NCBI GenBank assembly: GCA_045592345.1
Contig: JAZNUN010000083.1
Location: 7,987-71,986, forward strand
Direction of reading: 5' to 3'
DNA length: 64,000 nt
Source of the DNA: Acutalibacteraceae bacterium
GTDB lineage: Bacteria > Bacillota > Clostridia > Oscillospirales > Acutalibacteraceae
Both the position numbers and the translations under genes were made by a program. Positions 1,499 through 38,961 of this stretch are shown piece after piece. The notes beneath the pieces were generated by a model. That model worked only from the letters and a program-made list of their open reading frames with translations. It searched no databases and was not told the DNA's origin. The stretch's first letter is position 1. The number at the start of each line of letters is the position of its first letter.

Positions 1499-1522
1499 GG
1501 GCCTTTCCTCCTTTCCGGATGT

Positions 1523-2425: not shown

Positions 2426-2449
2426 GGAGTCGTCCTCCTTTCGTGTGGA

Positions 2450-4705: not shown

Positions 4706-4735
4706 ACCGATCCCCTCCTTTCATTATAAGGATAA

Positions 4736-6835: not shown

Positions 6836-6876
6836 TCCGATCCACTCCTTTCGGTATAGTTGTTTCATAGGAATTA

Positions 6877-7758: not shown

Positions 7759-7834
7759 TCCAAACCTCCTCCTTTCATATAGAATAGCGTTAATTTATAG
7801 GTTTGCGCCCCGATGGGGCGGTATCCGCCGCCCA

Positions 7835-8755: not shown

Positions 8756-8781
8756 TATTCCTCACTCCTTTCTATGATTTC

Positions 8782-11676: not shown

Positions 11677-11678
11677 TC

Positions 11679-12644: not shown

Positions 12645-12726
12645 GGTATCACCTCCTTTAGACTGAATGGCTCTCCCAAGCCGCTCATAGCGGACGGCTT
12701 GGGAGAAAAATCAAAAGATAACGAAA

Positions 12727-13887
12727 TTAGCCCTGCTTCTTGCGAATCAGGATGAAGGCTGCGGCCACACCGGCCAGCACCACAACACCGCCGCCGATGA
12801 TCCAGGGCAGTGCATTGCCCTTCTTGACGGGGTCGGCGGCAGTGCCGTTGGAAGCATTATCGTTGCCGTCCACGGCACCGTCGGCGTTGGTGGGATCGGT
12901 GATCACCTCACCGTTCTCGTTGGTGGCGGTGGTGGTGGGATCGGTGATCACCTCGCCGTTCTCGTTGGTAGCGGTGGTGGTGGGGTTGGTGATTACCTCG
13001 CCCTGAGCATTGGTGGCGGTGGTGGTATTCTTACCACCTGCCTGGGTGGTGGTGTTCTTGCCACCGGCTTGGGTGGTGGTGTTCTTGCCGCCAGCGGTGG
13101 TGTTCTTGCCGCCGGCGGTGGTGTTATTGTTGCCGGTGGTGGTCTTGGTGGCGTCGCGCTCGGCATTGATCTCGTCCCAGGTTTGGGTCAGCTTCTTGCC
13201 GGCAGGGATCTCGGTTACGGGCACATTGGAACCCATAATGATCTTCACAGAGTCCACGGCGATGTTCCACGGCACGTCGCCCTGCGCGTTACAGGGGTTG
13301 AACTGGATCTTCAGATACTTGTAGCCGGCGGGGATGACATCCGCGTTGGTCACGGTGGACATAAACCAGTAGGCCTTATCCCACTTCAGGTAGATGTTGG
13401 GGTCAAACTCATAATAGGTGGCCTGGGTCTCTACCTGTGCCCAGCTGTTTGCGGCACCGGTCTTGGAGATAAAGACGGAGATATCTTCGCGGGGGTCGCC
13501 GATACCGGCGCAGCACTGGGTCAGCAGCTCAAAGCCACCAATGTTTTTCGTCATTTTGTAGGTGATATACTCGGTGTGGTTGGGATTGCGGTCGTTATCC
13601 TGCTTGAGCAGCAGGGTGTTCTCCAGTTCCATATTGTACTCATAGCAGATCCGGTGTCCTTCGGTACCCTCGTCAGTGGAGCCGAAGGTGGAGAAATCCA
13701 CGATCTCACCGTTCTTTTCCATTTTGACCTTTTCTTCGACTTGTTTCTTGATATCCGCTTCGGTACCCACCAGCCCCTTGATCTCCAGAGTGGGGTCGGT
13801 CCACTCGCCGGTGACGGCGGCGGAGGCGGGGGCAACAACGGTCAGCATCATAGCGATAGCAAGTAATAGGGTAAACCATTTTTTCAT
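12727..13887 (-). CDS. Surface protein: signal peptide, unrecognised head module, Thr/Gly/Asn tandem repeats, C-terminal TM anchor
   Basis: Start placed at ATG 13887 (SD AAGGAGG; signal MKKWFTLLLAIAMMLTVVAPASA). The C-terminus is LPWIIGGGVVVLAGVAAAFILIRKKQG. The head module is paralogous to that of 30952-32448. Confidence 0.85.
   Translation of the reverse strand: MKKWFTLLLAIAMMLTVVAPASAAVTGEWTDPTLEIKGLVGTEADIKKQVEEKVKMEKNGEIVDFSTFGSTDEGTEGHRICYEYNMELENTLLLKQDNDRNPNHTEYITYKMTKNIGGFELLTQCCAGIGDPREDISVFISKTGAANSWAQVETQATYYEFDPNIYLKWDKAYWFMSTVTNADVIPAGYKYLKIQFNPCNAQGDVPWNIAVDSVKIIMGSNVPVTEIPAGKKLTQTWDEINAERDATKTTTGNNNTTAGGKNTTAGGKNTTTQAGGKNTTTQAGGKNTTTATNAQGEVITNPTTTATNENGEVITDPTTTATNENGEVITDPTNADGAVDGNDNASNGTAADPVKKGNALPWIIGGGVVVLAGVAAAFILIRKKQG
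12893..13143 (-). repeat. In-frame coding tandem repeats: 45 bp x3 (TTTATNENGEVITDP), then 27/27/21/21/21 bp units (GGKNTT[TQA])
   Basis: Read directly: GGATCGGTGATCACCTC(A/G)CCGTTCTCGTTGGT(G/A)GCGGTGGTGGTG recurs with a 45-nt period from 12893. GTTCTTGCC(A/G)CC...GGTGGT units follow to about 13143. Confidence 0.9.
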
Positions 13888-14149
13888 AGTGATTTCCTCC
13901 TTGATTTGGGTGGCGGACAGGCCAACCACCAATACTACAGATACATTATACTATAGGTATGGTAGTTTTTGCAAGGTCTATCATTTGGTTGGTTGTTATC
14001 CCAATTTTGTATTCTTATTTAAAACCGACAACTTTTTTGGCTTCTTGCACCAATTTTTACGCAAAAAGTGGGATTTTTATATGGATTTATAGCCAATTTG
14101 CCGGGGGGACGACCCGATTTTGGAACAAGCCGCGGGCGTCACCATATTT

Positions 14150-14206: not shown

Positions 14207-17200
14207 TTAGTTGTCGATACGCTTTTTGGAGGTGACGAAAGCCACCGCAGCAGATACCAGCATCAGGATGGCAGCCACAGTAACGGGGGTCATATCCTCA
14301 CCCAGTTTATCGGTGTTGCCGGGCTTGTCGTCGCCGATGCCGGGCTTGGTACCGCCCTCGGGGTTAGCATTGTTGCCACCGCCGTTGTTGCCGCCACCAT
14401 TGTTGCCACCATTGTTGCCGCCGTTATCGCCGCCATTGTTGATGGCGGGCACGCCGGCATCCTCGTGCCAGATACGCAGACCGTCCATAACGGTGGTCCA
14501 GTTCACGCGGTCCACCACCTCGCCGGTCTCGGCAATGGCGGTGCCGAACTTGTTGATCTGCACCTTCACGTAGGTGTACTCGCCGCTGACGTCGGCAGAC
14601 AGGGTGCTGTTGGCCCAGTAGGCGGACAGAGCATCCACGGTAGGCTCGGTAGCGGTGTACTTCACCTCGGTCCAGTTCTTACCGTCCTTGGACACGAAGA
14701 AGACGATGTCCTCGTTGATATAGAACTTATCGTACACGGTGATGCCCAGAGCGTCCAGCTCAATGCGCTTGACGTTGGCGGGCAGCTTATAGATCAAACT
14801 GTAGACGTCTTCGTTGTTCTGCTTGGAAATCAGGGTCTTCTTAATCTCGGTGTTGTTCTCCCACTGCAGACCATTATAGGCGGAACTCTCCCAAACTTTG
14901 GTAAAGTCGTCGAACTTATCCTCGAACAGGATCAGAGCGTTCTGCTTGTTGTAGGAAGCCAGAGCCTGCAGCAGATCGTAGGCCTTCTGAGAGCAGGCAT
15001 TGGCGGCTGCCACGGTCAGGTCGGCGCTGTTCAGCAGCTCCTCAGCCTCGGCGATCAGCGCCTCGATGGCGGCAACGTCCTCGGCCTTCATACCGGTGGT
15101 GTCCAGCTCCTGCAGAGCCAGGTATTTCTGATACAGATAGTTGTAGGCATTGTCGTTCTTGTAGGCGCTGTAGGCGGCCTTCATAGCGGCCTCGTCCATC
15201 ACCTTGGTGTAGATGCGGGCCAGAGCCACAGAACCGGCGTACGCACGGGCGCCGGTGCCGTTCTTGCTGACGTCGCCGCCGATGGTGATGTGGGAGATGG
15301 TGTTGTCGTAGGTGATAGCGCCGGGAGCCTCCAGCTCACCCACCTTGGCGCCGTCCAGATACAGCACCAGTTTATTGCCGTCAAAAGTGAGGACCGCATA
15401 ATACCAGGTGTTGGCTTTTAAAGCACCGGCGGAGATGATCTTCTCCTCGCCGTTAATGAAGACGGAGGCCTGGAAGGCGTCGTCCTTGTTGAACTCCAGT
15501 GCAAAACCGCCGTTTTCGCGGTTACCGAAGATGGTCTGACCCTCTTTTTCGCCGGGGGTGCCGTCTTCCTTGGGCTGAGGATCGAAATTAGCGGGGGTCT
15601 TGAAAGCGACCTCGATAGATAAGGCGTCGGTAATCTCTTTCAGGCTACCCAGGGAGGTGGCGTAGTTGACCCAACCGTTCATAGAAGCCACCTGACGACC
15701 CAGCTCCCCGTCGACCAGCAGTTTGATGGGGTGGGATTTGACGTACAGGTTGAACTGACGGCGGTAGGGAGAGTTATCCGCAAAGCCTGCGGCGATGTTC
15801 ACGTCCATGAAATCGGCGCGGTTCAGTGCCGCGCTGGGATCGGTGATGGGGGCGGTGGTGAACTCGCCGATAATAGCCTCGCTCACCTTACCGAAGGACT
15901 CTACAGCGGTGACGTTGACCACACACTTGGTGTTGCAGAACAGACCGTCCAGCTCCACGGTGTACTCGGTCTGCTTACCCTCCAGCTTGTAGAAGTCGGA
16001 AACGATATACTTGCTCACCAAAACCTCGCCGGCGGTGTCGGTCACGGTGACGTTGTAGGCGTGTACGTAGTCGTCGTGGCTGGCAGCGGGGAACTTCACG
16101 GTGGCGGAGTTGTAGGTCACGTTATCCACGGTGACGGCGGCACCCGCGGCAAAGGTGGGGGCTACACGATCCTCAGCGCGGTCCGCGGTATAGGTGAAGT
16201 TTTTCTTGGTGATGGGCAGGTTCAGTACCCAGGAATCCTTGACCTGCACACTCTCGTAGGCGTGGGTGGCGGACTCCGTCTCATAGGACTTCATACGCTT
16301 CACTTCCATAGTCTTGGAGGTGCCGTTGATGTCCAGAATCAGATAGTTCTGATAGTCGTAGCAGGCGGCAGAGGAACCACCGTTGCCGTCCTCGGCGGCG
16401 GTGTACTGCATAGAGGGAACGTCAATGCAGGTAAAGTTCTTCTGCATAATGGACTTCTCATTGGTGAAGTCGAAGTGGGAGTGACCTGCCAGATACACCA
16501 CCTGGGGATAGTAACGCAGCACGTCATACAGGGAACCGGTACCGCTGGAGCCCCACTCGGAGCCGTAGGTGGTGTTCGCCAGGGTCTGGTGACACATCAC
16601 GATGATGGGGGCATAGGGATCGGCGGCGGCCGCCTCGGCCAACTGCTCCTCCAGATAGCTCATGGTCTTCAGGGTGTAGGTGCCGTCCACAATGTGGTTC
16701 TCGGAGTTCAGACCGATGATGTGGATGCCGTTAACGACCTCGTGGAAGTTGGCCTGGGTCTTGCCGAAGGCATTCAGATAGGTCTGCAGCAGATCGTCGT
16801 ATTTCTCGTTGCGGAAATATACGCCCTCGAACTCGTGGTTGCCGGTGATGGTCAGCATCTTGATGTCGGTGCCGCCCATGACCTCGTTCCAAATGGCATT
16901 AAACTTGGCGTACTCCTCAGCGATGCCGGTATTAACCAGATCACCGGTGAACAGCACGGCGGAAACGCCCTGCGCCTTCAGCTCGGTCAGAGCCGCCTTC
17001 AGAGCATAGTCGCCGGCGGTGGCACCCACCTGCAGGTGGATATCGGACATAACGCCGATCTTCTGACTCTGATACACGGCCAGAGCGGGATCCAACTCGG
17101 TGGGTACGTAGTTGTCGGGGTTGCTGGGCAGGGAGGCGGCGGGGATGGACTCGCCGTCCAACTCAAAGGTATCCTCGTCGGCGTTTTTGGCGACGATGGT

Positions 17201-17551
17201 GACGTAGTCGTAGCGACCGTCGTCATCCTCTACGTCCACGTAATAGGTACCCTTGGCGGTGACGGTCATCATACCGCCGCCGATGAGCACCTCGGCATCG
17301 CTTTGATACCAGTAGACGGTATTACCGGGGACGGTAACGCCCTCTGCATCAATATCAGCGCCGCTCAGGAAGACGGAGATATCGCTCAGTTTAATATCCT
17401 GATCAACGTTGACGAATAGGTTGCGGTTGTCCTCGGTAATGGTGAAGTATTCGCCATCTGCCACAGCATGCAGAGCCGTGGTAGCAATAGCGGATACACA
17501 CATAGCCAGGCAACAAACCAGTGCCAGAATTTTTTTAGCTGTGTTTTTCAC
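14207..17551 (-). CDS. Giant surface metallophosphoesterase: signal peptide, calcineurin-like phosphoesterase, Ig/FN3-like region, LamG/ConA-like lectin domain, distant copy of the head module, NGG low-complexity, C-terminal TM anchor
   Basis: Phosphoesterase motifs are present (IGVMSDIHLQ, FTGDLVNTG, ITGNHEF, LAGHSHF), as is a LamG-like segment (YYAVLTFDGNKLVLYLDGAKVGE). The C-terminus is VTVAAILMLVSAAVAFVTSKKRIDN. GTG 17551 is preferred (SD GAAAGGTG upstream); the longest ORF reaches 17602. Confidence 0.85.
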   Translation of the reverse strand: MKNTAKKILALVCCLAMCVSAIATTALHAVADGEYFTITEDNRNLFVNVDQDIKLSDISVFLSGADIDAEGVTVPGNTVYWYQSDAEVLIGGGMMTVTAKGTYYVDVEDDDGRYDYVTIVAKNADEDTFELDGESIPAASLPSNPDNYVPTELDPALAVYQSQKIGVMSDIHLQVGATAGDYALKAALTELKAQGVSAVLFTGDLVNTGIAEEYAKFNAIWNEVMGGTDIKMLTITGNHEFEGVYFRNEKYDDLLQTYLNAFGKTQANFHEVVNGIHIIGLNSENHIVDGTYTLKTMSYLEEQLAEAAAADPYAPIIVMCHQTLANTTYGSEWGSSGTGSLYDVLRYYPQVVYLAGHSHFDFTNEKSIMQKNFTCIDVPSMQYTAAEDGNGGSSAACYDYQNYLILDINGTSKTMEVKRMKSYETESATHAYESVQVKDSWVLNLPITKKNFTYTADRAEDRVAPTFAAGAAVTVDNVTYNSATVKFPAASHDDYVHAYNVTVTDTAGEVLVSKYIVSDFYKLEGKQTEYTVELDGLFCNTKCVVNVTAVESFGKVSEAIIGEFTTAPITDPSAALNRADFMDVNIAAGFADNSPYRRQFNLYVKSHPIKLLVDGELGRQVASMNGWVNYATSLGSLKEITDALSIEVAFKTPANFDPQPKEDGTPGEKEGQTIFGNRENGGFALEFNKDDAFQASVFINGEEKIISAGALKANTWYYAVLTFDGNKLVLYLDGAKVGELEAPGAITYDNTISHITIGGDVSKNGTGARAYAGSVALARIYTKVMDEAAMKAAYSAYKNDNAYNYLYQKYLALQELDTTGMKAEDVAAIEALIAEAEELLNSADLTVAAANACSQKAYDLLQALASYNKQNALILFEDKFDDFTKVWESSAYNGLQWENNTEIKKTLISKQNNEDVYSLIYKLPANVKRIELDALGITVYDKFYINEDIVFFVSKDGKNWTEVKYTATEPTVDALSAYWANSTLSADVSGEYTYVKVQINKFGTAIAETGEVVDRVNWTTVMDGLRIWHEDAGVPAINNGGDNGGNNGGNNGGGNNGGGNNANPEGGTKPGIGDDKPGNTDKLGEDMTPVTVAAILMLVSAAVAFVTSKKRIDN

Positions 17552-17879
17552 GCTGTTCACACCTTTCTGAATAGTGTACATAATCCTATGCGATGGTTTC
17601 ACACGGCATTATTACATTTCAATTATATAGCAAAGACGCATAATTGAAAAGGTCGCATTTTTGGATACGTGTTACCTCAAATTTGGGTTTTTCGTCAAAT
17701 ATGCATTAATCGTAGAAAAAATAGAAATATTTTCGTTAAAAATGACGAATAAAAAATGACAATTTCCAATTTCACCCAAAAGCAGGACCACCTCCGCAAA
17801 GGAATATGAACCGTTGGTTTCCGGAACAAAAAACAGGTAATTCCCCTTATGCCTGTGCGTTGTTTTCAGAAAACCACCC

Positions 17880-24384: not shown

Positions 24385-24420
24385 ATAACCGTCCCCGCTT
24401 GTCGGGGGCGGTTATTTTAT
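24385..24420 (+). terminator. Rho-independent terminator
   Basis: ATAACCGTCCCCGCTTGTCGGGGGCGGTTATTTTAT. Confidence 0.8.
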
Positions 24421-24520
24421 GTCTGTTTGTTTGCTTGTGTCCTTGACGGGAAAGGGGAGCATAGTGTATACTTTATGTCATAGAGGATGTTTATTGCGTT
24501 TCGAGAGGAAGATGTCTGTT

Positions 24521-26974
24521 ATGAAAAGATGGTTGACAATGGTATGCTCCGTAGCGCTGATATTGGCGCTGTTGCCGATGGGTGCATTTGCTGCCCCCGT
24601 GCGGGCACAGGAGGACACCGTCATTGTTAATGTAAAGGATTTCGGCGCCGTCGGCGACGGCAAAACGGACGACCGTACCGCCATTATGGAGGCATTTTAC
24701 TTTGCTCTCACCGAATATATGGTGGATGCCATTCCGGTTACCGTATATTTCCCGGAGGGTCAGTACGGCCTGCTGAATGGAGGTATGTATATCTATCTGC
24801 CCCGCGGCTATGGCAACCTGACGGTCAAGGGTGACGGCGCGGATAAGTCTACCATCGTCTATCTGGACGAGTGGACCAACAACGGCTCTTGGGTGGCGTT
24901 GCGTATTCTGCCCAAAATCACGCCCGAATCCGAGGACCAGTACCTCCACGACATCACGGTGCAGGATTTGGGTATATACGATACCGCCCCCGAGAAACAC
25001 GCTTGGAATAAAAACAATGGCGATCCCGCCACCGAGGAGACTCACGGTTTTAACATCCAATACTGCAAGCGTGCCACCATTAAGAACTGTAAGGTTTCCA
25101 ATGTTGGTGACGAAGCCATTGATATGTCCCACTGTATTGATTCTGTTATGACCGACAACGTGGTGGAGAACAGTCCCGGTGCAGGTGGTGCAGGCGGCTC
25201 CATTTCGGTGGGTGACGGCTCCAAAAACGTCAGGATCACCAATAACACGGTGACCGGTAGTATTGCCGGCAAGATCAACTGGGCCATTGCGGTGGAAGCA
25301 CTGACGGAAACGGTAGAAGACATTACCATCACCGGCAACATCATCGCCGATATGAAAGGATATGGTATCAACCTCGGTGCGCCCAACGGCATCATTGCTG
25401 ACGTGACGATTGATGACAATAGCATCACCAACTGCAACGAAGGCGGCATTCGTTTTATGGGTACCGGGCAGACCACGAATGTCAGCATTACCAATACCCA
25501 AATCTCAAGAACATCCACCGCCATCCTCGTGGATGGTGCCAATAAGCATCTTACGCTGATTGACAACTGCACCATGGATACGCTTTCCTCTTGCGGTGTC
25601 AATATTATTTCTCCCAGTTGCACCGATACGATCATCCGGAATTCCACCATCAGTAATTCGCAGAACCGTGCTGTATACAATGCCGGTACGGGTACAAGAA
25701 TTGACCGCGTACGGATTGTGGGCACGGGCTTGGCCGGCGGAATCACTTCGGGTGCCATCACCCAGTATACTTCGGGCGGCAGTTGTGAGGTGACCAACAC
25801 CGTGCTGTTGGATTGCCGGAATAAACGCGGCCTTCAGATGGTACAGACAGTTAAGAATACCTTGATTCAGCAGCCCGAGACTTCCGGTTATACCAGCATC
25901 CAGAGCGCCACTCTGATTGAAAACTGTAAAGTCAATCGCGTTATCGGTGCGGTCAGCGACTGTACCATTGACGGGTTGGTGCTGTATACCGAAGCGGATT
26001 TGGGTACCCATGCGGTCACTTTGTCGGATCGGACGAATTGCATCGTGACCAATTGTAAGATCACTGTTCCCTCCCGCTATGCGATATGTGAGATACGTGC
26101 TACGGATCATAATGTGATCACCAATAACATTGCCGTGGGTGGCAGCGGTTTTCAAATCATCGGCGCCAATACGGTGGCATCGGGCAACATCAGGGCAACC
26201 GAAAGCACTACCGAGCAGTTCCGTTATCGCGTGGTGGACGGTCAAGCCACCATTACTGCGTGGCTGGATGTGAGTGCGGTTCAGGCAATGATCCCCTCCG
26301 CGGTGGAGGGCTATCCTGTCACCGCCATCGACCCTTGGGCGTTTGCCCTTAACGAGAGTCTGACCTCCATTCTCATTCCTGACAGCATCACCGCCATCGG
26401 TGCCAATGCGTTCTTTGGATGTGACGGCTTGACCGAGGTGCATTACCCCGGCAGTGTGGCTCAGTGGGAGACCATTGACATCGGTGTGAACAACGACGCT
26501 CTTCTGGATGCAGAGTGGCATTGTCCCACCAATCGCTATTCCGATGAGGTTGCTCACAGCGTGATGGACACCGCGGCCGGCAACGGCTTGGCGTTCCGCT
26601 TTACGATGTACGCCTCCGGCGTGACCGTGGACGGCGACAAGCAAGTGGATATGACTGGGGCCACCGTAAGCTATCTGGGCGTGGAATGCAGGCTGGTGGG
26701 CTTTGGTGCCATTGTGACCAATAATGCCGCCGTGGGCACAGGCGATTTCACGTTGGCCGCCGTTAACGGCACCGATGTGCGGAATGTCCCCACCGTCTAT
26801 TTGCAGGAAGTCGCCGCGGATCACTGTGCTTTTGCGGTGCGTGTCGTCGACATTCCCGACGAGATGAAAAGAATAGATGTTTACACACGCCCCTACTACA
26901 TTGTTGAAGTAGGCGGCGAGCAGGTCACCGTCTACAGCGATGTAGACGTGGCATCCTGTAATGATTTTTCGTAA
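24521..26974 (+). CDS. Secreted right-handed beta-helix (pectate-lyase-fold) protein with BspA-type leucine-rich repeats and a C-terminal unknown domain
   Basis: Signal MKRWLTMVCSVALILALLPMGAFA. VNVKDFGAVGDGKTDDRTAI is the typical N-cap of Pectate_lyase_3-type beta-helices. LRR segment IPDSITAIGANAFFGCDGLTEVHYPGS. ATG 24521 is preferred (GAGGAAG about 9 nt upstream); the track start is 24419. Confidence 0.85.
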   Translation: MKRWLTMVCSVALILALLPMGAFAAPVRAQEDTVIVNVKDFGAVGDGKTDDRTAIMEAFYFALTEYMVDAIPVTVYFPEGQYGLLNGGMYIYLPRGYGNLTVKGDGADKSTIVYLDEWTNNGSWVALRILPKITPESEDQYLHDITVQDLGIYDTAPEKHAWNKNNGDPATEETHGFNIQYCKRATIKNCKVSNVGDEAIDMSHCIDSVMTDNVVENSPGAGGAGGSISVGDGSKNVRITNNTVTGSIAGKINWAIAVEALTETVEDITITGNIIADMKGYGINLGAPNGIIADVTIDDNSITNCNEGGIRFMGTGQTTNVSITNTQISRTSTAILVDGANKHLTLIDNCTMDTLSSCGVNIISPSCTDTIIRNSTISNSQNRAVYNAGTGTRIDRVRIVGTGLAGGITSGAITQYTSGGSCEVTNTVLLDCRNKRGLQMVQTVKNTLIQQPETSGYTSIQSATLIENCKVNRVIGAVSDCTIDGLVLYTEADLGTHAVTLSDRTNCIVTNCKITVPSRYAICEIRATDHNVITNNIAVGGSGFQIIGANTVASGNIRATESTTEQFRYRVVDGQATITAWLDVSAVQAMIPSAVEGYPVTAIDPWAFALNESLTSILIPDSITAIGANAFFGCDGLTEVHYPGSVAQWETIDIGVNNDALLDAEWHCPTNRYSDEVAHSVMDTAAGNGLAFRFTMYASGVTVDGDKQVDMTGATVSYLGVECRLVGFGAIVTNNAAVGTGDFTLAAVNGTDVRNVPTVYLQEVAADHCAFAVRVVDIPDEMKRIDVYTRPYYIVEVGGEQVTVYSDVDVASCNDFS

Positions 26975-30951: not shown

Positions 30952-32448
30952 ATGAAAAAGATTTGGGCATTGATACTGGCGGTTTTGTTGCTGGTATCCG
31001 TTCTGTGCTTGGGCGCATTCTCTGCCAGCGCCGCCGTTACAGGCACCTTTGTGGATGAGATCGTAGCAGAGTTTGCCGTTCCCGAGATCGTGGATTATTC
31101 CAGCTACGGCTCTACTGAGCTGGGCACCCCCGGCCATCGCGTAGCTTATGAGTACAATGCCGAACTGGGCGCTACGTTGTTGCTCAAGCAGGATAATGAC
31201 CGCGATCCCTCCCACACCGAGTACGTTACCTACAAGATGGCCAAGAACATCGCCGGCTTTGAGTTTTCCGTGATGTGCTGTGCCGGTCTGGGCGACCCGC
31301 TGGAGGACATCACTGTCTTCATTTCCAAGACCGGCGTCGAGGGTAGCTGGGCTCAGGTACAGACTCAGGCTACCAAGTATGTTTTTGACGAGAATATTTA
31401 CCCCGGTTGGCATCAGGCTTATTGGTTCAATTCCACCTTGATGAACGCCCAGAAGATTCCCACCGGCTATAAGTATCTGAAGATCCAGTTCAACCCCTGC
31501 AACGACCAGGGCGACTGCACTTGGAACGTGGCTATCGACACCGTGACCATCTATATGGGCTCCAACGTGGCGGTTCCCACCATTGCCGAGGAGGATAAGT
31601 TCCTCACTTGGGAGGAGATCAATGAGCAGGAGAACAACTCCACCACTCAGCCTACCACTCCTCCCACTGACCCCACTGACCCCACCCAGCCCTCTGTTCC
31701 CGGCGACTACATCCCCGGCGATGTGAACAACGACGGCAAGGTCAACGTGAAGGACCTGGGTCTGCTCCAGCAGCACCTGAACGGCTGGGAGGTCGAGATC
31801 ACCCAGGCCGCCGCGGATGTCAACGGCGACGATAAGATCAATGTGAAGGATCTGGGTCTGCTTCAGCAGCATCTCAACGGCTGGGATGTAGAGCTGGAGC
31901 CCGGCGGCCCCTCTTTCGGCGGCTCTACTGAGCCTACTGAGCCCGAGGAGCCTACCACTCCTTCCACCGAGCCCACCACGGTTCCCACCACTGAGCCCAC
32001 CACGGTTCCCACCACTGAGCCTACCACGGTTCCTACCACCGAGCCCACCACGGTTCCCACCACTGAGCCTACCACGGTTCCTACCACTGAGCCTACCACT
32101 CCCGCTGAGCCGGAGGTGGATATGCCCGGTGCCGGCTACGATATCGACGGCAGAAACCGTATTGTGGTGTATTCCTCTGATGCTTTCTATGAGAACGCCA
32201 CCGTCAAGGTCGACTTTACCTTCAAGAACATCAGTAAAGATAACGGCAAAGAGTGGGTGATCCCCGAGTATAGCCAGATCACCTATGCGTGCTATGATGA
32301 GGACGGCACTCAGCTGGGCACCGGCACCATGGTTTTGGGTGCGTTGGAATACAGAGACACCGTCACCTGCACCATCACCCTGCCCGAGGGCACTGCCCGC
32401 ATCGCCTTCACCGGTCACAACCTGGAGTACTGGACCCCCTGGATGTAA
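30952..32448 (+). CDS. Secreted dockerin protein: signal peptide, head module paralogous to 12727-13887, dockerin (two Ca-binding segments), TEPTTVPT linker, C-terminal unknown domain
   Basis: Dockerin at 31717-31896 (GDVNNDGKVNVKDLGLLQQHLNGW...DVNGDDKINVKDLGLLQQHLNGW). The head module aligns along its length with the 12727 gene product (e.g. LLLKQDNDRDPSHTEYVTYKM, GYKYLKIQFNPCN). Confidence 0.9.
   Translation: MKKIWALILAVLLLVSVLCLGAFSASAAVTGTFVDEIVAEFAVPEIVDYSSYGSTELGTPGHRVAYEYNAELGATLLLKQDNDRDPSHTEYVTYKMAKNIAGFEFSVMCCAGLGDPLEDITVFISKTGVEGSWAQVQTQATKYVFDENIYPGWHQAYWFNSTLMNAQKIPTGYKYLKIQFNPCNDQGDCTWNVAIDTVTIYMGSNVAVPTIAEEDKFLTWEEINEQENNSTTQPTTPPTDPTDPTQPSVPGDYIPGDVNNDGKVNVKDLGLLQQHLNGWEVEITQAAADVNGDDKINVKDLGLLQQHLNGWDVELEPGGPSFGGSTEPTEPEEPTTPSTEPTTVPTTEPTTVPTTEPTTVPTTEPTTVPTTEPTTVPTTEPTTPAEPEVDMPGAGYDIDGRNRIVVYSSDAFYENATVKVDFTFKNISKDNGKEWVIPEYSQITYACYDEDGTQLGTGTMVLGALEYRDTVTCTITLPEGTARIAFTGHNLEYWTPWM
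31966..32100 (+). repeat. In-frame 24-bp tandem repeat, about 5.5 copies (TEPTTVPT linker)
   Basis: AC(C/T)GAGCC(C/T)ACCACGGTTCC(C/T)ACC repeats with a 24-nt period. Confidence 0.95.
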
Positions 32449-32456
32449 CGATTGAT

Positions 32457-32495
32457 AAATACCCAAGTGTTCGTTAGAGCACTTGGGTATTTTTG
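32457..32495 (+). terminator. Rho-independent terminator
   Basis: AATACCCAAGTG...CACTTGGGTATTTTTGG. Confidence 0.85.
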
Positions 32496-32504: not shown

Positions 32505-32533
32505 TTGACTTTGGTTGGCGGGTGTGCTATATT
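32505..32533 (+). promoter_or_regulatory. SigA-type promoter
   Basis: TTGACT (32505-10), a 17-nt spacer, then TGcTATATT (32525-33). Confidence 0.65.
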
Positions 32534-32567
32534 TTAGTCAGTATATGCTCTGCGAGGAGGAATTCAG

Positions 32568-34595
32568 ATGAAAAAACTGTTACCTTTATTGCTGTCTGCG
32601 GTGCTGCTGGTATCTATGCTGTGCGTTGGCACGGTGGGTATGACGCTTCGTGCCGACGCGGCCTCTGTGGTATCCACCGGACGCGGCGGTGACGCCCCCG
32701 CTGTTGTTGCGGACAGTGTATCCGCTCCGGCGGGTCAGACGGTGCAGGTGGCTCTGCGGGTGCAGAACAACCCCGGCATCGTGGCCCTGCGCGCCACCTT
32801 GGCATACGATAGCTCCGTGCTGACTTTGATGAATATCGAGGGCGTGGACTTTGCCGATGCGGCTTTCAGCCCCTTGGAGAGTAATCCCATTATCGTCAAT
32901 TGGGTGGATTCCATTAATCCTAATGTTACCGATGACGGCGTTTTGGCTCTGTTGACCTTTGCGGTGGCAGAGGACGCCCGCGCGGGGTCCTACCCCTTGA
33001 CCGTCAGCATTCCCGATCCCGACGATGTGTTCAACTACGCTATGGACACCGTGTCTATGGATGCTGTCAGCGGCGGTGTATCGGTGGTGACCTACACCCC
33101 CGGCGACGTCAACGGAGACAAAAAGGTGAATATCAAGGATCTTGGTCTGCTCCAACAGCATCTGAACGGATGGGATGTGCAGGTCATTGAGGCCGCCGCT
33201 GACGTCAACGGCGATAATAAGATTAACATTAAGGACTTAGGTCTGTTACAGCAGTACCTCAACGGCTGGGACGTAGAGCTGAAGCACGGCGGCGCGGATA
33301 TGAATACCGGTATCGACGACGCCTACGAAGTGCCGGAGGGCGGCTTCAATATGAATGAGCCGGTGGAGATTACCTTTGCTCATACGATGGGAAGAAACCT
33401 GCAAGACATATTGAATAAGCACATTGCTGAGTTCAATAAAATTTATCCTAATATCACCGTTAAGCATTCCATGTATGGCGGATGGTACGATTTGCCGGAG
33501 GAAATCAGCCATGAGATCACCGATGGCAATCCGCCCAATCTGGCCTATTGCCACCCTGAGCATGTGGCAGATTACAACGCCGCCGATGTCACGGTGGTGC
33601 TGGATAACCTGGTCGCCCACAATACGCTGGGACTGACCGAGGAGCAACAAAACGATTTTGTGGACAGCTTGTATGCCTCCGGCAAGGTCTACGGCGACGA
33701 CCGTATGTACAGCCTGCCCCTTAGCCGGTCTACTGAGGTGCTGTACTACAACAAAACCTTTTTTGATGAACACAATCTGACCGTACCTACCACGTGGGCA
33801 GAAATGTGGGAGGTATGTGCCCAAATCAAAGCCATTGATAAAAACTGCACTCCTTTGGGCGCTGACTCCGAAAGCAACTGGTTCATCACCCTGTGTGAAC
33901 AGATGGGGAGCGGTTATATTTCTGTGGAAAACGGCGGGGAGTATCTGTTCAATAACGACCAAAACAAAGCCGCTATGAAGGAATTGCGCGAATATTACAA
34001 AAAAGGGTATTTCACGACTCAACAATTGTATGGCGGCTATACATCCGGGCTGTTCACCGAACAGGGATGTTATATGAGCATCGGTTCCACCGGAGGCGCT
34101 TTATATAATAGTTTTTGGGATGATAAAACCGAGGTAGGCATAGCTCCCATCCCCCAGTATAATGCGGACCAGCCCAAAACTATCTCTCAAGGTCCCAATC
34201 TGTGCATCTTGCGGGGCGAAAACACCACCGATCAGCAGGTGCTGGCCTCCTGGCTGTTTATGAAATTCCTGTGCACCAACGCAGATTTTCAAGCAGAATT
34301 TAGTATGATGGTAGGCTATATGCCGGCAATTCATTCGGCGTTGGAACATCCCTCTTTTGTTGAATGGCTGAATACCGCTGACGGTTATAATAACTTGTCC
34401 GCTTATGCGACACAGGTGAGCATATACAATTTGGATAGTTATTATACCTCGCCCGCTTTTGTCGGCTCCTCGGTTGCCAGAGACGAAGTGGGGGATTTGC
34501 TGGTAAGGTGTCTTGCTTACGGTGAAACGGATGACATGATAGACCAACTGTTTGAAGAAGCCATCGCCACCTGCGAGGCGGCACGGAAAAACTAA
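32568..34595 (+). CDS. Cohesin + dockerin + family-1 extracellular solute-binding protein fusion
   Basis: Signal MKKLLPLLLSAVLLVSMLCVGTVGMTLRADA. Cohesin-like segment at ~32694-33090 (SAPAGQTVQVALRVQNNPGIVALRATLAYDSSVLTLMNIEG...DGVLALLTFAV). Dockerin at 33102-33281 (GDVNGDKKVNIKDLGLLQQHLNGW...DVNGDNKINIKDLGLLQQYLNGW). The remaining ~430 aa are SBP-like (ITFAHTMGRNLQDILNKHIAEFNKIYPNITV...). Confidence 0.85.
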   Translation: MKKLLPLLLSAVLLVSMLCVGTVGMTLRADAASVVSTGRGGDAPAVVADSVSAPAGQTVQVALRVQNNPGIVALRATLAYDSSVLTLMNIEGVDFADAAFSPLESNPIIVNWVDSINPNVTDDGVLALLTFAVAEDARAGSYPLTVSIPDPDDVFNYAMDTVSMDAVSGGVSVVTYTPGDVNGDKKVNIKDLGLLQQHLNGWDVQVIEAAADVNGDNKINIKDLGLLQQYLNGWDVELKHGGADMNTGIDDAYEVPEGGFNMNEPVEITFAHTMGRNLQDILNKHIAEFNKIYPNITVKHSMYGGWYDLPEEISHEITDGNPPNLAYCHPEHVADYNAADVTVVLDNLVAHNTLGLTEEQQNDFVDSLYASGKVYGDDRMYSLPLSRSTEVLYYNKTFFDEHNLTVPTTWAEMWEVCAQIKAIDKNCTPLGADSESNWFITLCEQMGSGYISVENGGEYLFNNDQNKAAMKELREYYKKGYFTTQQLYGGYTSGLFTEQGCYMSIGSTGGALYNSFWDDKTEVGIAPIPQYNADQPKTISQGPNLCILRGENTTDQQVLASWLFMKFLCTNADFQAEFSMMVGYMPAIHSALEHPSFVEWLNTADGYNNLSAYATQVSIYNLDSYYTSPAFVGSSVARDEVGDLLVRCLAYGETDDMIDQLFEEAIATCEAARKN

Positions 34596-34611: not shown

Positions 34612-34644
34612 AAAGAGCCTGTGGCATGCGCCACAGGCTCTTTT
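34612..34644. terminator. Bidirectional terminator between convergent genes
   Basis: AAA-GAGCCTGTGGC-ATGC-GCCACAGGCTC-TTTT. Confidence 0.85.
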
Positions 34645-37357: not shown

Positions 37358-37392
37358 AAAAGACGGAAAACTATTCCAAAGGAGTGAGGATA

Positions 37393-38961
37393 ATGAAACG
37401 TATTTTGGCTGTTATTCTATCCGTTGTATTGTTGCTTGCCGCCCTGCCCTTGGGGATGGTGTCGGTGTCTGCCGCTGACCAAGAGGTGGACCTAGAAGAG
37501 GTGTTTCAGAGTAATCTGAATTTCCTGGACCAGTACTATACCCTGGGGCCGGAGTTTATGGCTCAAAAGCTGTGCGGTATGTTGTATGACTGGGAGTTGG
37601 CAGAGGCTAATGACTTTGCCGACCAGCCTATGCCCGCCGCAGAGTTTGAGGAGATTCTATACCGCTATTTTGCCCCTGCTGTGGATCTGCTGGCGGATCT
37701 CCGCAGTTATCAGCTGTATGATTGGAAAACCAACAGCTATTATCCTTTCTATAATTCCGAGACGGGAATGTATAATATCTTCTTTGTCGGCGGTTTCGGT
37801 GGCGATCTGCCCCAGCGTCAGTATCAGCGGTATTTGACTACCGAGAATGGATACACCGTGTTTTATCAGCATATCACCTACGACTTTTTGCCGATGACTC
37901 CCGAGATGCAGGCAGAGCTGGAGGCACTGCATTGGCCTATGACTTACACCTATGACGGTAAAGTGTATGAAAACGGCCCCGAGGGATATTATCGCATAGC
38001 ATCCTTGGACGATTACGGAAACAAATACGAGGTGGAGTATAACGACGGCATCCTGCGTATTCTGAGCCAGACCCCTTATACTGCCGCATCGGAGAATGAT
38101 TTTAAATACACCATCACCGACGGCGAGGTAACCATCACCAAGTATGTGGGAGCCGGCGGCGATGTCATTATTCCTTCTAAATTGGGCGGCTACCCCGTCA
38201 CGGTGATAGGAAAGGATGCTTTTAAATATCGTGACTTTCTAACATCGGTGATGATTCCGGAAGGTGTCACTACTATTCAAGAGAGCAGTTTCAACATGTG
38301 TAAAGACTTAAAATATATTGGCATATCGAAAAGTGTGCTGACTATTGAAAAATTTGCATTTAAGTACTGTGGATTATTAAGGGTAGATGTGCCGACAAGT
38401 GTTATTTCTATAGGAGAAGAAGCGTTTAAAGGATGCGGAAGTTTGACTTTAGTAAATATTGAAGGCAATACAGCGATTGGAGCGTGGGCATTCTATGGTG
38501 GTAGTATGACGCAAGTTATTATTGGTGATGGTGCTGAAACTATTGGTGAAAATGCATTTGGCTCTTGCCAAAGTTTGATTTCTGTAGTTTTGCCAAAGAG
38601 TATTGTAAAGATTTATCAAGGAGCCTTTTATGATTGCCGTAGTTTGGAAGAGGTATATTATGCTGGAAGTGAAGAGGAACGAAAATTAATAGACATTGGT
38701 TATAGTAACAATAAACTGAGCAATGCTACGTGGCATTATAACTGGGATGTTTCTCCCGTAATCCCCGGTGATTCCAGCGGAGACGGCGAGGTGAGCATAC
38801 AGGATGTTGCTCTGTTTCAGCGCTATCTCAACGGCTGGGATGAGGAACTGGATGCAGTTGTCTGCGACGTAAACGCCGACGGCGCCTGTGACAACAAGGA
38901 TTTGGTTCTGCTTATCCGCTATCTCAATGGTTGGGATGTGGAATTGGTTCTGCCTAATTAA
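37393..38961 (+). CDS. Secreted protein: unknown N-domain + BspA-type leucine-rich repeats + C-terminal dockerin
   Basis: ATG 37393 follows SD AAAGGAGTGAGGA. Signal MKRILAVILSVVLLLAALPLGMVSVSA. LRR units (IPEGVTTIQESSFNMCKDLKYIGISKSVLTIEKFAFKYCGLL...). Dockerin at 38767-38946 (GDSSGDGEVSIQDVALFQRYLNGW...DVNADGACDNKDLVLLIRYLNGW). Confidence 0.9.
   Translation: MKRILAVILSVVLLLAALPLGMVSVSAADQEVDLEEVFQSNLNFLDQYYTLGPEFMAQKLCGMLYDWELAEANDFADQPMPAAEFEEILYRYFAPAVDLLADLRSYQLYDWKTNSYYPFYNSETGMYNIFFVGGFGGDLPQRQYQRYLTTENGYTVFYQHITYDFLPMTPEMQAELEALHWPMTYTYDGKVYENGPEGYYRIASLDDYGNKYEVEYNDGILRILSQTPYTAASENDFKYTITDGEVTITKYVGAGGDVIIPSKLGGYPVTVIGKDAFKYRDFLTSVMIPEGVTTIQESSFNMCKDLKYIGISKSVLTIEKFAFKYCGLLRVDVPTSVISIGEEAFKGCGSLTLVNIEGNTAIGAWAFYGGSMTQVIIGDGAETIGENAFGSCQSLISVVLPKSIVKIYQGAFYDCRSLEEVYYAGSEEERKLIDIGYSNNKLSNATWHYNWDVSPVIPGDSSGDGEVSIQDVALFQRYLNGWDEELDAVVCDVNADGACDNKDLVLLIRYLNGWDVELVLPN

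What the first reader, a model, noticed from the sequence alone, without database searches (positions are those of the whole stretch)
32568..34595. An ABC-type solute-binding protein carrying both a cohesin and a dockerin, with no transporter next to it
The N-terminal signal or anchor is followed by a cohesin-like module of about 130 aa, a canonical two-segment dockerin and a complete family-1 SBP fold. It has no lipobox, so surface retention would depend on the cohesin/dockerin modules. No permease or ATPase gene is adjacent: the dockerin protein lies upstream and hflX converges downstream. Having both modules in one chain allows head-to-tail self-assembly or an adaptor role. The cargo is a ligand-capture protein rather than an enzyme. 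That implies a cellulosome-like scaffold used to concentrate or hand over soluble sugars. I do not know of a described example of this arrangement.
Basis: partly seen in the sequence, partly recalled or inferred. Interest (0 to 1): 0.7.

Follow-up and report, generated by a model that had tools for sequence, protein, structure and literature searches.

The report
Scaffold-docked transporter binding protein, nucleotide-type
A gut bacterium has replaced the usual lipid anchor of a transporter's ligand-capture protein with the cohesin and dockerin connectors known from cellulosomes, and the captured ligand is probably a nucleic-acid breakdown product rather than a sugar.

Summary
ORF 32568-34595 (+, 675 aa) encodes a signal peptide, a type I-like cohesin, a two-segment dockerin and a complete ABC solute-binding protein (SBP). 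All modules pass Pfam cut-offs and fold-level tests. It has no lipobox and no permease or ATPase within about 24 kb.

The interpretation needs correcting on three points.

1. The SBP is probably not a sugar binder. Its about 470-aa lipoprotein relatives sit in ABC operons surrounded by nucleases, nucleotidases and nanoRNase-like genes (4 of 4 contexts). Its best solved relative by sequence and fold is the Thermus dinucleotide-binding protein (7C0F). Seven of the eight residue positions mutated in that structure series are identical or conservatively replaced in the family.

2. Cohesin plus dockerin is a rigid, linker-less cassette used on many non-enzyme cargoes in this Oscillospirales lineage.

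3. The architecture is not unique. A sister strain has an 88%-identical cassette on an unrelated SBP at the same locus, and that second type forms at least 17 clusters. All those examined are orphans next to dockerin-only genes, and one sits next to a lipoprotein cohesin.

I found no published description. I rate it a new variant of a known kind. Binding partners, ligand and cognate permease remain untested.

The parts
32460..32494 (+). Terminator-like hairpin after the upstream gene's stop: TACCCAAGTG, 10-nt loop, CACTTGGGTA, then TTTTT
   Evidence: Read directly from the sequence. The consensus scan missed it, probably because its loop is longer than 8 nt.
32505..32533 (+). Sigma-70-like promoter (TTGACT, 17 nt, TATATT, with extended TG) for the target gene
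   Evidence: 10 of 12 matches. This is a consensus match only.
32555..32561 (+). Ribosome-binding site GAGGAGG, 6 nt before the ATG
32568..34595 (+). Whole gene: signal peptide, cohesin, dockerin, SBP (675 aa plus stop)
32568..32663 (+). Sec signal peptide (aa 1-32). No lipobox; an ADA/AS cleavage-type site
   Evidence: Sequence. The AF2 model has a helix at aa 4-26.
32673..33095 (+). Type I-like cohesin (aa 36-176), a nine-strand beta-sandwich
   Evidence: Pfam; 5,223 relatives; profile versus PDB cohesins, 3ul4_A at 4e-13; model pLDDT 93 and Foldseek hits to cohesins; window HMM scan.
33096..33287 (+). Two-segment type I dockerin (aa 177-240), fused to the cohesin with no linker
   Evidence: Zero-gap junction in 110 of about 123 adjacent cohesin-dockerin pairs.
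33288..33353 (+). Short linker (aa 241-262) and recombination junction between cassette and cargo
   Evidence: Identity to the P0127 allele collapses after nt 720 of the gene. dS drops from 0.7-1.05 in the cassette to 0.17 downstream.
33354..34592 (+). Complete CUT1/cluster-D type solute-binding domain (aa 263-675) of the UgpB/U3GBP clade. Site-equivalent residues: W306, H329, E331, S388, Y491, S507, Y513, Q541
34612..34643 (.). 14-bp G+C-rich hairpin between the convergent target and hflX; likely a bidirectional terminator
   Evidence: Detected on the minus strand; the palindromic stem serves both directions.
30952..32448 (+). Conserved neighbour (498 aa): signal peptide, unknown N-terminal domain, dockerin (nt 31711-31902) of the same signature as the target's, a PT-rich repeat, and a C-terminal FxLYD-like domain. 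Candidate partner of the target's cohesin
   Evidence: Kept next to the gene in L001, L002, L093 and L094. Its dockerin plus C-terminal domain is homologous to the small dockerin proteins beside P0282 and P0310.
37384..38961 (+). LRR_5 (BspA-type) protein with a C-terminal, more divergent dockerin (nt 38761-38946). Possible further member of the assembly; absent in the sister strain L093

Best explanation
The gene encodes a secreted ligand-capture protein of an ABC importer family. Its usual N-terminal lipid anchor has been replaced by a rigid cohesin-dockerin cassette.

Shown: the module architecture, the folds, purifying selection, orphan status, and the modular exchange of cargo behind the cassette.

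Inferred:
(i) The dockerin plugs the protein into a cohesin on another protein. In one related species a lipoprotein single-cohesin gene lies directly upstream, which would keep the SBP at the membrane surface.
(ii) The protein's own cohesin stays free to recruit a further dockerin protein. The most likely candidate is the conserved neighbouring dockerin protein, or another cassette protein, which would give short chains.
(iii) The SBP binds phosphate-containing nucleic-acid breakdown products (dinucleotides, short oligonucleotides or nucleotides), not sugars.
(iv) The SBP hands these to an ABC permease encoded elsewhere in the genome. It would work beside OB-fold nucleic-acid-binding proteins that the same lineage has also moved onto this cassette.

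In short, this is a cohesin-dockerin-assembled surface module for scavenging nucleic-acid fragments. It is built from parts that other Clostridia anchor individually by lipid.
For: Architecture and folds: cohesin, dockerin; SBP.

Anchor replacement: 112 of 117 stand-alone relatives match a lipobox pattern. The target, P0001, P0002 and P0003 instead have a signal peptide plus dockerin.

Ligand class:
- Stand-alone relatives at 57-60% identity lie in ATPase, two-permease, SBP operons. These are followed by an SNase-like nuclease and OB-fold lipoproteins, and flanked by 5'-nucleotidase, NT5C-guanylate kinase, SurE and two DHH/DHHA1 genes, plus in some loci a nucleoside phosphorylase, cytidine deaminase and a phosphopentomutase-like gene. 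This holds in 4 of 4 loci.
- The best PDB match by sequence (E 8e-17) and by fold (top 25 hits, E about 1e-24) is 7C0x. This is the U3G dinucleotide-binding protein, placed in the UgpB phosphate-ligand clade by PMC12718374.
- The eight residue positions mutated in that series map to positions that are invariant in all 47 stand-alone relatives for seven positions and in 42 of 47 for the eighth. Four are identical to 7C0F and three conservative, against 25% identity overall.
- The dockerin-SBP relatives P0002 and P0003 are co-directional with a metallophosphoesterase gene 21 nt upstream.

Same lineage docks other parts of that locus: P0363 (cassette plus OB-fold repeats) is 43-45% identical, E 1e-76, to the OB-fold lipoproteins of the nuclease/ABC locus. 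It comes from the same two samples as the sister allele P0127.

Membrane-proximal anchor: the 170-aa protein beside P0282 has an LTAC/GK lipobox and a cohesin 42-44% identical to the target's.

Conserved partner gene: a dockerin-only protein with a related C-terminal domain is adjacent in the window, L001, L093, L096 and L097.

Functional constraint: dN/dS 0.09-0.18 in all modules.
Against: - No cohesin-dockerin interaction was tested, and the anchoring cohesin of this organism is unknown. None other lies in the 64-kb window.
- No cognate permease or ATPase was identified, and all five docked-SBP loci examined are orphans. This fits a non-transport role equally well.
- The ligand inference rests on relatives about 60% identical in other organisms (GC 46% versus 56%) and on a solved protein only about 20-25% identical.
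- TM-scores of sugar SBPs are nearly as high (0.78-0.83).
- From my own recollection, the U3G in 7C0F was bound endogenously during expression and that protein also binds glycerophosphocholine, so its physiological ligand is not settled.
- The window copy differs from the invariant family residues at two site positions, Y329H and D331E.
- No dockerin-bearing nuclease was found.
- The sister allele carries an unrelated SBP (best solved relative the cycloalternan binder Lmo0181) at the same locus. So the cassette locus is not specifically tied to nucleotides.
Confidence: 0.5

Rival explanations
1. One reading: the docked SBP captures soluble sugars or oligosaccharides and concentrates or hands them over within a cellulosome- or amylosome-like polysaccharide-degrading complex.
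For: SBP_bac_1/SBP_bac_8 (CUT1) proteins mostly bind sugars, and there are weak NCBIfam hits to carbohydrate SBPs. Many sugar SBPs are structural neighbours at TM 0.78-0.83. The sister allele P0127 has an SBP whose best solved relative is the cycloalternan binder Lmo0181. A glycogen phosphorylase gene lies 6.5 kb downstream.
Against: Family context is nuclease/nucleotidase/nanoRNase-like, with no glycoside hydrolase, in 4 of 4 loci. The best sequence and fold match is the dinucleotide binder, then UgpB. Site residues match that binder. No dockerin-bearing glycoside hydrolase is in the window or among 56 related cohesin+dockerin proteins.
Confidence: 0.15
2. The SBP domain no longer serves a transporter. 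It acts as a ligand-binding or targeting module (as a CBM does for enzymes) or as a sensor input within a cohesin-dockerin surface assembly, holding nucleic-acid fragments or tethering the cell to them.
For: Every docked SBP examined is an orphan. The same cassette carries pure binding modules: OB-fold repeats, LRR, lectins, Ig-like domains. Docked SBPs are only about 60% identical to a stand-alone group that averages 79% among its members, which is compatible with changed constraints.
Against: The cleft residues and the whole two-lobe fold remain under purifying selection. A lipoprotein cohesin next to one family member would place the SBP at the membrane, where permeases are. From general knowledge, orphan SBPs that share a permease are common in Gram-positive bacteria.
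Confidence: 0.25
3. The protein self-polymerises head-to-tail (its own dockerin into its own cohesin type, as in R. bromii Amy4), forming SBP arrays rather than acting as an adaptor for other proteins.
For: Precedent: the Amy4 dockerin binds its own cohesin (PMC4611034). All cassette and neighbour dockerins in this lineage share one signature, (K/R)DLGxLQQxLNGW, in both segments, which suggests one specificity group. The linker-less junction makes binding in cis unlikely (the topology argument is inference).
Against: No interaction data. Paralogous cohesins in the lineage are only 44-57% identical, which would fit several specificities. A dockerin-only partner gene is conserved next to the gene.
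Confidence: 0.3
4. Artefact: a chimeric assembly or a decaying fusion with no function.
For: Mosaic dS and cargo swapping could superficially look like mis-assembly.
Against: An identical or 91%-identical gene lies in the same synteny on at least 11 contigs from independent samples and in an NCBI assembly. The reading frame is intact with its own promoter-like site, RBS and terminator. dN/dS is 0.09-0.18 in all modules. The sister family has at least 17 clusters with the same architecture.
Confidence: 0.02

Closest known systems
Ruminococcus bromii Amy4 (Sca1) of the amylosome
   Same: A single polypeptide carries functional cargo plus both a cohesin and a dockerin. It can therefore be docked and also recruit other dockerin proteins or itself (PMC4611034; PMC12663171). 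Both come from Oscillospirales gut bacteria.
   Different: Amy4's cargo is a GH13 amylase with CBM26, not an ABC SBP. The rest of the system is carbohydrate-active. Here the cohesin and dockerin form a linker-less N-terminal cassette, and the related cargo is non-enzymatic.
Ruminococcus flavefaciens ScaC-type adaptor scaffoldin
   Same: A small secreted protein with one cohesin and one dockerin. The ScaC cohesin (5lxv) is among the structural matches. Cassette-only relatives such as P0159 (282 aa) look like such adaptors.
   Different: From my own knowledge, ScaC carries no cargo and serves a fibre-degrading cellulosome. The target adds a 425-aa SBP.
Thermus thermophilus dinucleotide (U3G)-binding protein, PDB 7C0F (Chandravanshi et al. 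2021), and the UgpB clade of CUT1 SBPs
   Same: Best sequence and fold match of the SBP domain. Four of eight mutated site residues are identical and three conservative. The clade binds phosphate-containing ligands (PMC12718374).
   Different: Only about 20-25% identity. The Thermus protein is a free periplasmic SBP with no cohesin or dockerin. The ligand of the target is untested.
Lipoprotein SBPs of the nuclease-linked ABC locus in Oscillospiraceae/Clostridia MAGs (for example MBE6539852.1 = P0059)
   Same: 57-60% identical over the whole SBP domain, with the same invariant cleft residues.
   Different: They have a lipobox, are about 470 aa, and are encoded inside an ATPase, two-permease, SBP operon. 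As far as I could find they are uncharacterised.
Non-cellulosomal cohesin-dockerin systems (Peer et al. 2009 survey; not readable here)
   Same: Cohesin and dockerin modules on proteins unrelated to plant-fibre degradation.
   Different: I could not check whether that survey lists an SBP. None of the papers I could read does.

Membership tests
Cohesin (Pfam PF00963; type I-like) | Sequence match above the curated threshold | tested here: met
   41.3 bits against a cut-off of 24.1. Profile matches full-length solved type I cohesins, 3ul4_A at 4e-13. 5,223 relatives.
Cohesin (Pfam PF00963; type I-like) | Nine-strand jelly-roll beta-sandwich fold | tested here: met
   Model pLDDT 93.4. The top 50 Foldseek PDB hits listed are all cohesins; type I entries have TM 0.77-0.83 and rmsd 2-2.5 A.
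Cohesin (Pfam PF00963; type I-like) | Binds a dockerin | not testable with these tools
   No multimer modelling or assay available.
Dockerin type I (PF00404) | Two ~22-residue segments, each a calcium loop (D-x-N/D-x-D-x6-D) followed by a helix | tested here: met
   DVNGDKKVNIKDLGLLQQHLNG and DVNGDNKINIKDLGLLQQYLNG. 49.5 bits. Helices at model residues 157-167 and 189-199, plus a short 4-residue helix at 176-179 between them.
Dockerin type I (PF00404) | Calcium-dependent binding to a cohesin | not testable with these tools
   Needs ELISA, ITC or complex modelling.
ABC importer solute-binding protein, CUT1 / SBP_bac_1-SBP_bac_8 | Two-lobe periplasmic-binding-protein fold with a hinge and cleft | tested here: met
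   122 and 72.6 bits. The SBP part is modelled at pLDDT mostly 80-97, and TM is 0.82 to solved SBPs. Cleft positions conserved.
ABC importer solute-binding protein, CUT1 / SBP_bac_1-SBP_bac_8 | In Gram-positives: N-terminal lipoprotein anchor (or fusion to the permease) | tested here: not met
   No lipobox in the target, P0001, P0002 or P0003; 112 of 117 stand-alone relatives match a lipobox pattern.
ABC importer solute-binding protein, CUT1 / SBP_bac_1-SBP_bac_8 | Encoded with, and delivering ligand to, a permease/ATPase | tested here: not met
   Gene adjacency is not met in the window or in the L005, L093, L096 and L097 contexts. Delivery itself is not testable here.
UgpB/U3GBP subclade (phosphate-ester ligands) | Closest solved relatives are U3GBP, UgpB and the GPC binder | tested here: met
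   Sequence: 7c0f 8e-17, 6x84 3e-9, 4aq4, 6r1b. Fold: top 25 hits are 7C0x, then 4mfi.
UgpB/U3GBP subclade (phosphate-ester ligands) | Conservation of ligand-site residues | tested here: inconclusive
   4 of 8 identical and 3 of 8 conservative at the positions mutated in the 7C0x series. The window copy has Y329H and D331E. That these positions contact the ligand is inferred from the entry titles and from memory of the paper.
UgpB/U3GBP subclade (phosphate-ester ligands) | Binds a nucleotide, dinucleotide or glycerophosphodiester | not testable with these tools
   Needs DSF, ITC or crystallography.
Cellulosome / amylosome | Dockerin-bearing carbohydrate-active enzymes assembled on cohesin scaffoldins | tested here: not met
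   The three dockerin proteins in the window carry an SBP, an unknown/FxLYD-like domain and LRR_5. There is no glycoside hydrolase among 56 related cohesin+dockerin proteins. The whole genome was not available.
Adaptor scaffoldin (ScaC-like) or self-assembling Amy4-like protein | One cohesin and one dockerin in the same chain | tested here: met
Adaptor scaffoldin (ScaC-like) or self-assembling Amy4-like protein | Cohesin specificity different from (adaptor) or the same as (self-assembly) its own dockerin | not testable with these tools
   Only indirect hints: one dockerin signature across the lineage, and diverged cohesins.

The most novel reading that the evidence does not exclude
Some Acutalibacteraceae-like gut Clostridia have rebuilt a nucleic-acid scavenging system as a cohesin-dockerin assembly. 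This would be a 'nucleic-acid cellulosome' without glycoside hydrolases. The ligand-capture SBP and the OB-fold nucleic-acid binders are lipoproteins elsewhere. Here they carry a rigid cohesin-dockerin cassette that daisy-chains them onto a membrane lipoprotein cohesin. Cargo would be exchanged between strains by recombination at the cassette/cargo junction, so that one chromosomal slot presents a nucleotide-type or a glycan-type SBP.
Probability: 0.3. Interest if true: 0.8.

Novelty: new variant of a known kind. Interest (0 to 1): 0.6.

Why it matters
Cohesin-dockerin systems are understood almost entirely as scaffolds for polysaccharide-degrading enzymes. What the many non-cellulosomal cohesins and dockerins in gut Firmicutes do is a long-standing open question.

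This gene gives a concrete, testable case in which the cargo is the ligand-capture subunit of an ABC importer. The connector replaces the lipid anchor that Gram-positive SBPs normally need. If the ligand is a nucleic-acid fragment, it would also point to an uncharacterised route for scavenging extracellular DNA or RNA in the gut and rumen. It would give a predicted function to a very large family of lipoprotein SBPs (more than 3,000 hits) now annotated only as 'extracellular solute-binding protein'.

The linker-less cassette with a clean recombination junction is also a natural plug-and-play module. It could be useful for designer surface display.

Tried and rejected
- A genome-collection scan with the target protein found nothing. 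The window's own genome is either not in that collection or is masked there. The second scan, with PNPase, gave taxonomy and synteny but no homologue at the syntenic slot in 80 species.
- A word-index search with the cohesin alone gave a single hit and wrongly suggested an orphan module. The exhaustive search corrected this.
- The full-length AF2 model had low confidence for the cohesin and dockerin because of a shallow alignment. I repeated it with a cassette alignment.
- A lipobox census among cohesin relatives produced mostly false positives (a Cys inside signal-peptide cores), so I dropped it.
- I considered that P0059's ABC locus belongs to the same organism as the target because both occur in the same samples. 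I rejected this on GC content: 46% against 56%.
- PADLOC (defence systems) gave no hits.
- PDB sequence search of the upstream protein matched only its dockerin.
- Context look-up of the stand-alone type-2 SBP P0281 failed.
- The original U3GBP paper and Peer et al. 2009 are not held in the library.
- Literature searches for a dockerin- or cohesin-fused SBP, and for a characterised nuclease-linked oligonucleotide ABC importer, found nothing relevant.
- Cis (intramolecular) cohesin-dockerin binding could not be assessed because model coordinates and PAE are not returned.
Full report

Yes. The window contains an intact ORF at 32568..34595 (+) of 675 aa. It has its own expression signals:
- a terminator-like hairpin at 32460-32494, just after the upstream gene's stop;
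- a promoter-like site at 32505-32533;
- a GAGGAGG ribosome-binding site 6 nt before the ATG;
- a 14-bp hairpin at 34612-34643 shared with the convergent hflX.

Pfam finds all the claimed domains above their curated thresholds: Cohesin at aa 45-147 (41.3 bits against 24.1), Dockerin_1 at aa 178-232 (49.5 bits), SBP_bac_8 at aa 286-599 (122 bits) and SBP_bac_1 (72.6 bits).

The gene is not an assembly artefact. The same or a 91%-identical protein lies in the same synteny (S15, pnp, a 270-aa gene, a dockerin protein, this gene, convergent hflX, PRPP synthetase, and so on) on at least 11 contigs from several metagenomes. The exact sequence is also in an NCBI assembly. dN/dS against the syntenic orthologue is 0.09-0.18 in each module and 0.25 in the short linker.

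**2.

*(a) Does the N-terminal module fold as a cohesin?* A word-index search found only one relative. An exhaustive HMMER search then found 5,223 relatives at E<=1e-3 and 1,523 at E<=1e-10, many with 2-7 cohesin repeats.

A profile of the cohesin-dockerin region matches solved type I cohesins over their full length: 3kcp_A at 6e-17, 3ul4_A at 4e-13, and also CipA, CipC and ScaB cohesins. It also matches type I dockerins.

With a 50-sequence alignment the region aa 33-245 is modelled at mean pLDDT 93.4 and pTM 0.78, as a nine-strand beta-sandwich followed by the dockerin helices. The top 50 Foldseek PDB matches listed are all cohesins, and the type I entries have TM 0.77-0.83 and rmsd 2-2.5 A.

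*(b) Is the SBP degenerate?* No. The SBP region, from about aa 250, is modelled at pLDDT mostly 80-97 and superposes on solved SBPs at TM 0.82. The cleft positions are conserved.

- There is no lipobox. Cys19 is preceded by S-M-L and an ADA/AS site follows, whereas 112 of 117 stand-alone relatives match a lipobox pattern.
- No transporter gene lies nearby. The nearest BPD_transp_1 genes are at least 24 kb away in unrelated clusters.

**3. Organism**

PNPase from the window is 85% and 83% identical to that of uncultured Acutalibacteraceae/'Ruminococcaceae' MAGs from animal and human guts. This is an uncultured Oscillospirales bacterium with about 55% G+C. None of the 80 related species representatives has a comparable gene downstream of pnp.

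**4. What does the SBP bind?**

The SBP part has more than 3,000 relatives. Apart from three docked forms, those listed are about 470-aa lipoproteins, 57-60% identical to the target.

I looked at four of these in independent contigs, and all sit in the same conserved locus:
- Upstream: a 5'-nucleotidase-type Metallophos protein in three of the four loci, an NT5C-guanylate kinase fusion in three of the four, and an RDD protein.
- The transporter: ABC ATPase, two permeases and the SBP.
- Directly after the SBP: an SNase-like nuclease of about 450 aa, and OB-fold (tRNA_anti-codon) lipoproteins.
- Downstream on the other strand: SurE and two DHH/DHHA1 (NrnA-like) proteins in three of the four loci, and in some loci a purine-nucleoside phosphorylase, cytidine deaminase, a phosphopentomutase-like enzyme or an HD hydrolase.

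This is a nucleic-acid scavenging locus, not a glycan one. The cytoplasmic nanoRNase-like and nucleotidase genes suggest that phosphorylated fragments, not only nucleosides, are imported. That last step is inference.

Comparison with solved structures points the same way:
- By sequence, the best match is the Thermus thermophilus 7C0F-7C1B series (E 8e-17), followed by UgpB and the mycobacterial glycerophosphocholine binder.
- By fold, the top 25 hits are all 7C0x, 'dinucleotide-binding protein ... bound to uridylyl-3'-5'-phospho-guanosine' (E about 1e-24). Mtb UgpB follows (4e-21), then sugar binders.
- PMC12718374 places this U3G-binding protein (PDB 7C0F) in the UgpB clade of phosphate-ligand binders.

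The PDB titles name eight mutated residues: Y56, F79, N81, S127, Y224, T240, Y246 and Q274. On the alignment these correspond to W306, H329, E331, S388, Y491, S507, Y513 and Q541 of the target. In the 47 stand-alone relatives, seven of these positions are invariant (W, Y, D, S, Y, S, Q) and the eighth is Y in 42 of 47. Four are identical to 7C0F and three are conservative, against 25% identity overall. The window copy alone has Y329H and D331E.

As a control, the unrelated SBP of the sister allele P0127 has a different best PDB match, the cycloalternan binder Lmo0181. So the method does discriminate between SBP types.

I conclude, with moderate confidence, that the ligand is a dinucleotide, short oligonucleotide or nucleotide-type phosphoester rather than a sugar.

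**5. The cohesin-dockerin part is a cassette**

The nearest cohesins (50-59% identity) are all followed immediately by a dockerin. They are attached to varied cargo:
- nothing (282 aa, ScaC-like);
- Peptidase_M23 with a PG-binding domain;
- a cadherin-like domain;
- LRR_5;
- several unknown regions.

The junction has zero gap relative to the profile in 110 of about 123 directly adjacent cohesin-dockerin pairs, and in 41 of 42 such pairs in single-cohesin proteins. So this is a rigid unit without a linker. From the known cohesin topology, the C-terminal strand lies in the sheet opposite the dockerin-binding face. A linker-less dockerin is therefore unlikely to bind its own cohesin in cis, which would leave both surfaces free. 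This is inference.

In a census of 56 related cohesin+dockerin proteins, the cargo is Flg_new, Big_2, LRR_5, SLH, lectins, M23/CHAP and one CBM. There is no glycoside hydrolase, and the only SBP is P0127. This is therefore a non-cellulosomal cohesin-dockerin system.

**6. Cargo is exchanged behind the cassette**

P0127 (660 aa) shares aa 1-247 with the target at 88% identity, but its C-terminal SBP is unrelated. It occupies exactly the same chromosomal slot. Nucleotide identity falls from 75-92% to random right after nt 720, which is the end of the dockerin.

Between the window and its orthologue L001, dS is 0.71 in the cohesin and 1.05 in the dockerin, but 0.17 in the SBP. That is a second sign of mosaicism.

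The nucleotide-type SBP also exists as signal peptide, dockerin, SBP. P0003 has two dockerin segments and P0002 only one. Both lie in a different conserved locus, directly after a cytoplasmic metallophosphoesterase gene and before an esterase gene. P0002 is 78-100% identical to P0001 over the first ~245 residues of the SBP but only 58-75% over the rest.

The likely history, which is inference:
1. A lipoprotein SBP lost its lipobox and gained a dockerin.
2. That SBP was later recombined behind the cohesin-dockerin cassette at the pnp-hflX slot, replacing another SBP.

**7. The architecture is not unique**

With P0127 as the query, at least 17 distinct clusters have Cohesin + Dockerin + SBP over 100% of the query, down to 40% identity. 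There are also dockerin-SBP forms, one LRR-dockerin-SBP form, and stand-alone relatives.

Two of these, P0282 and P0310, lie just after the dcw/ftsZ cluster, again with no permease or ATPase nearby. Each is followed by a dockerin-only protein of about 205 aa. The dockerin plus C-terminal domain of that protein is homologous to the C-terminal half of the window's upstream 498-aa protein.

P0282 is also preceded by a 170-aa protein with a true-looking lipobox (LTAC/GK) and a single cohesin 42-44% identical to the target's. That gene trio suggests a chain: a membrane lipoprotein cohesin holds the dockerin of the SBP protein, and the SBP protein's cohesin holds the neighbour's dockerin. This would keep the SBP close to the membrane, as a lipid anchor would.

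**8. Link to nucleic acids within the lineage**

P0363 carries the same cassette (61% identical to P0127's) fused to OB-fold repeats. These repeats are 43-45% identical (E 1e-76) to the OB-fold lipoproteins of the nuclease/ABC locus. It comes from the same two samples as P0127.

P0363 lies in a four-gene cohesin-dockerin island between ftsZ and clpB: a 442-aa dockerin protein, an 840-aa and a 1081-aa cohesin-dockerin protein, and P0363 itself. The 1081-aa protein also has weak OB-fold hits.

All dockerins of cassette proteins and of the neighbour in this lineage share one signature, (K/R)DLGxLQQxLNGW, in both segments. The cohesins are 44-57% identical.

So at least two components that are lipoproteins in the canonical nucleic-acid uptake locus have been put on this cassette.

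**9. Mechanism proposed, and its limits**

- Shown: the architecture, the folds, selective constraint, orphan status, cargo exchange, and the family context.
- Inferred: docking replaces lipid anchoring; the cohesin recruits the neighbour or other cassette proteins; the ligand is a nucleic-acid fragment; the ligand is delivered to a permease encoded elsewhere.
- Not tested: any cohesin-dockerin pairing, the ligand, and the permease.

The main rivals are a non-transport binding or sensor role (every docked SBP is an orphan), a sugar ligand, and Amy4-like self-polymerisation (PMC4611034).

**10. Comparison with what is known, and novelty**

The closest described systems are R. bromii Amy4 (an enzyme with both modules) and ScaC-type adaptors. 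The closest solved SBP is the Thermus U3G binder.

In the papers I could search and read, I found no dockerin- or cohesin-fused ABC SBP. I also found no characterisation of the nuclease-linked ABC locus. Public sources give these proteins no name.

I classify the finding as a new variant of a known kind: a cohesin-dockerin system with a transporter SBP as cargo. I give it an interest score of 0.6.

Noticed in passing
window 578-13932 (minus strand): Two pairs of ABC permease genes (578-2425 and 6877-8755) are interleaved with a DUF5696 protein (2450-4705), an NHL+Yip1 protein (4736-6880), a 966-aa secreted protein with no Pfam match (8782-11682), an AraC regulator and a 401-aa secreted protein. 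No classical SBP domain was detected, so the large unknown proteins may be atypical binding proteins.
   Followed up: no
window 14207-17602 (minus strand): A 1131-aa secreted protein combining a calcineurin-like metallophosphoesterase with a Laminin_G_3 (concanavalin-like) domain. It could be an extracellular phosphoesterase or nuclease relevant to the nucleotide theme, but it carries no dockerin.
   Followed up: no
window 24419-26974; L001 1-4150: An 851-aa pectate-lyase-like beta-helix + LRR_5 protein. The orthologous contig L001 has two tandem copies separated by a small HTH gene, so copy number varies.
   Followed up: no
window 37384-38961; L093 7311-7450: The LRR_5 + dockerin gene between PRPP synthetase and the diacylglycerol kinase-like gene is present in the window, L001 and L002. 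It is absent from the sister strain L093, so it is a presence/absence polymorphism.
   Followed up: partly
L096 9419-12767; L097 10001-12692; L098 2506-11776: The slot between ftsZ and clpB is a variable cohesin-dockerin island in related species. It holds lipoprotein cohesin + cohesin-dockerin-SBP + small dockerin protein in L096, a cohesin-dockerin-SBP + small dockerin protein in L097, and a four-gene set with two OB-fold cassette proteins in L098.
   Followed up: partly
L095 637-2139 (P0002): A relative of the target's SBP carries only one dockerin segment after its signal peptide (DGNGDGTVNIKDLGLLQQYLNG). This half-dockerin may be a decaying or a functionally distinct anchor.
   Followed up: no
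window 31903-32136 (within gene 30952-32448): A Pro/Thr-rich tandem repeat (TTEPTTVP, about 5 copies) lies between the dockerin and the C-terminal FxLYD-like domain of the upstream protein. Orthologues differ in length: 498, 526 and 492 aa.
   Followed up: no
window 30952-31700; L098 3963-4760: The unknown N-terminal domain of the upstream dockerin protein (starts AVTGTFVDEIV) recurs at the N-terminus of the 840-aa cohesin-dockerin protein of the ftsZ island. It has no Pfam or PDB sequence match.
   Followed up: partly
window 33552-33560 (codons 329 and 331 of the target): The window copy has His and Glu where all 47 stand-alone relatives, and P0001, have Tyr and Asp. These are two of the eight positions equivalent to mutated site residues of 7C0F, so the copy may have a shifted specificity.
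   Followed up: partly
L007 9431-15055; L090 9419-14336: In the canonical locus the SNase-like nuclease and the OB-fold repeat proteins appear to be lipoproteins themselves (Cys-containing lipobox-like N-termini). This suggests a membrane-surface nucleic-acid degradation and uptake module that seems uncharacterised.
   Followed up: partly
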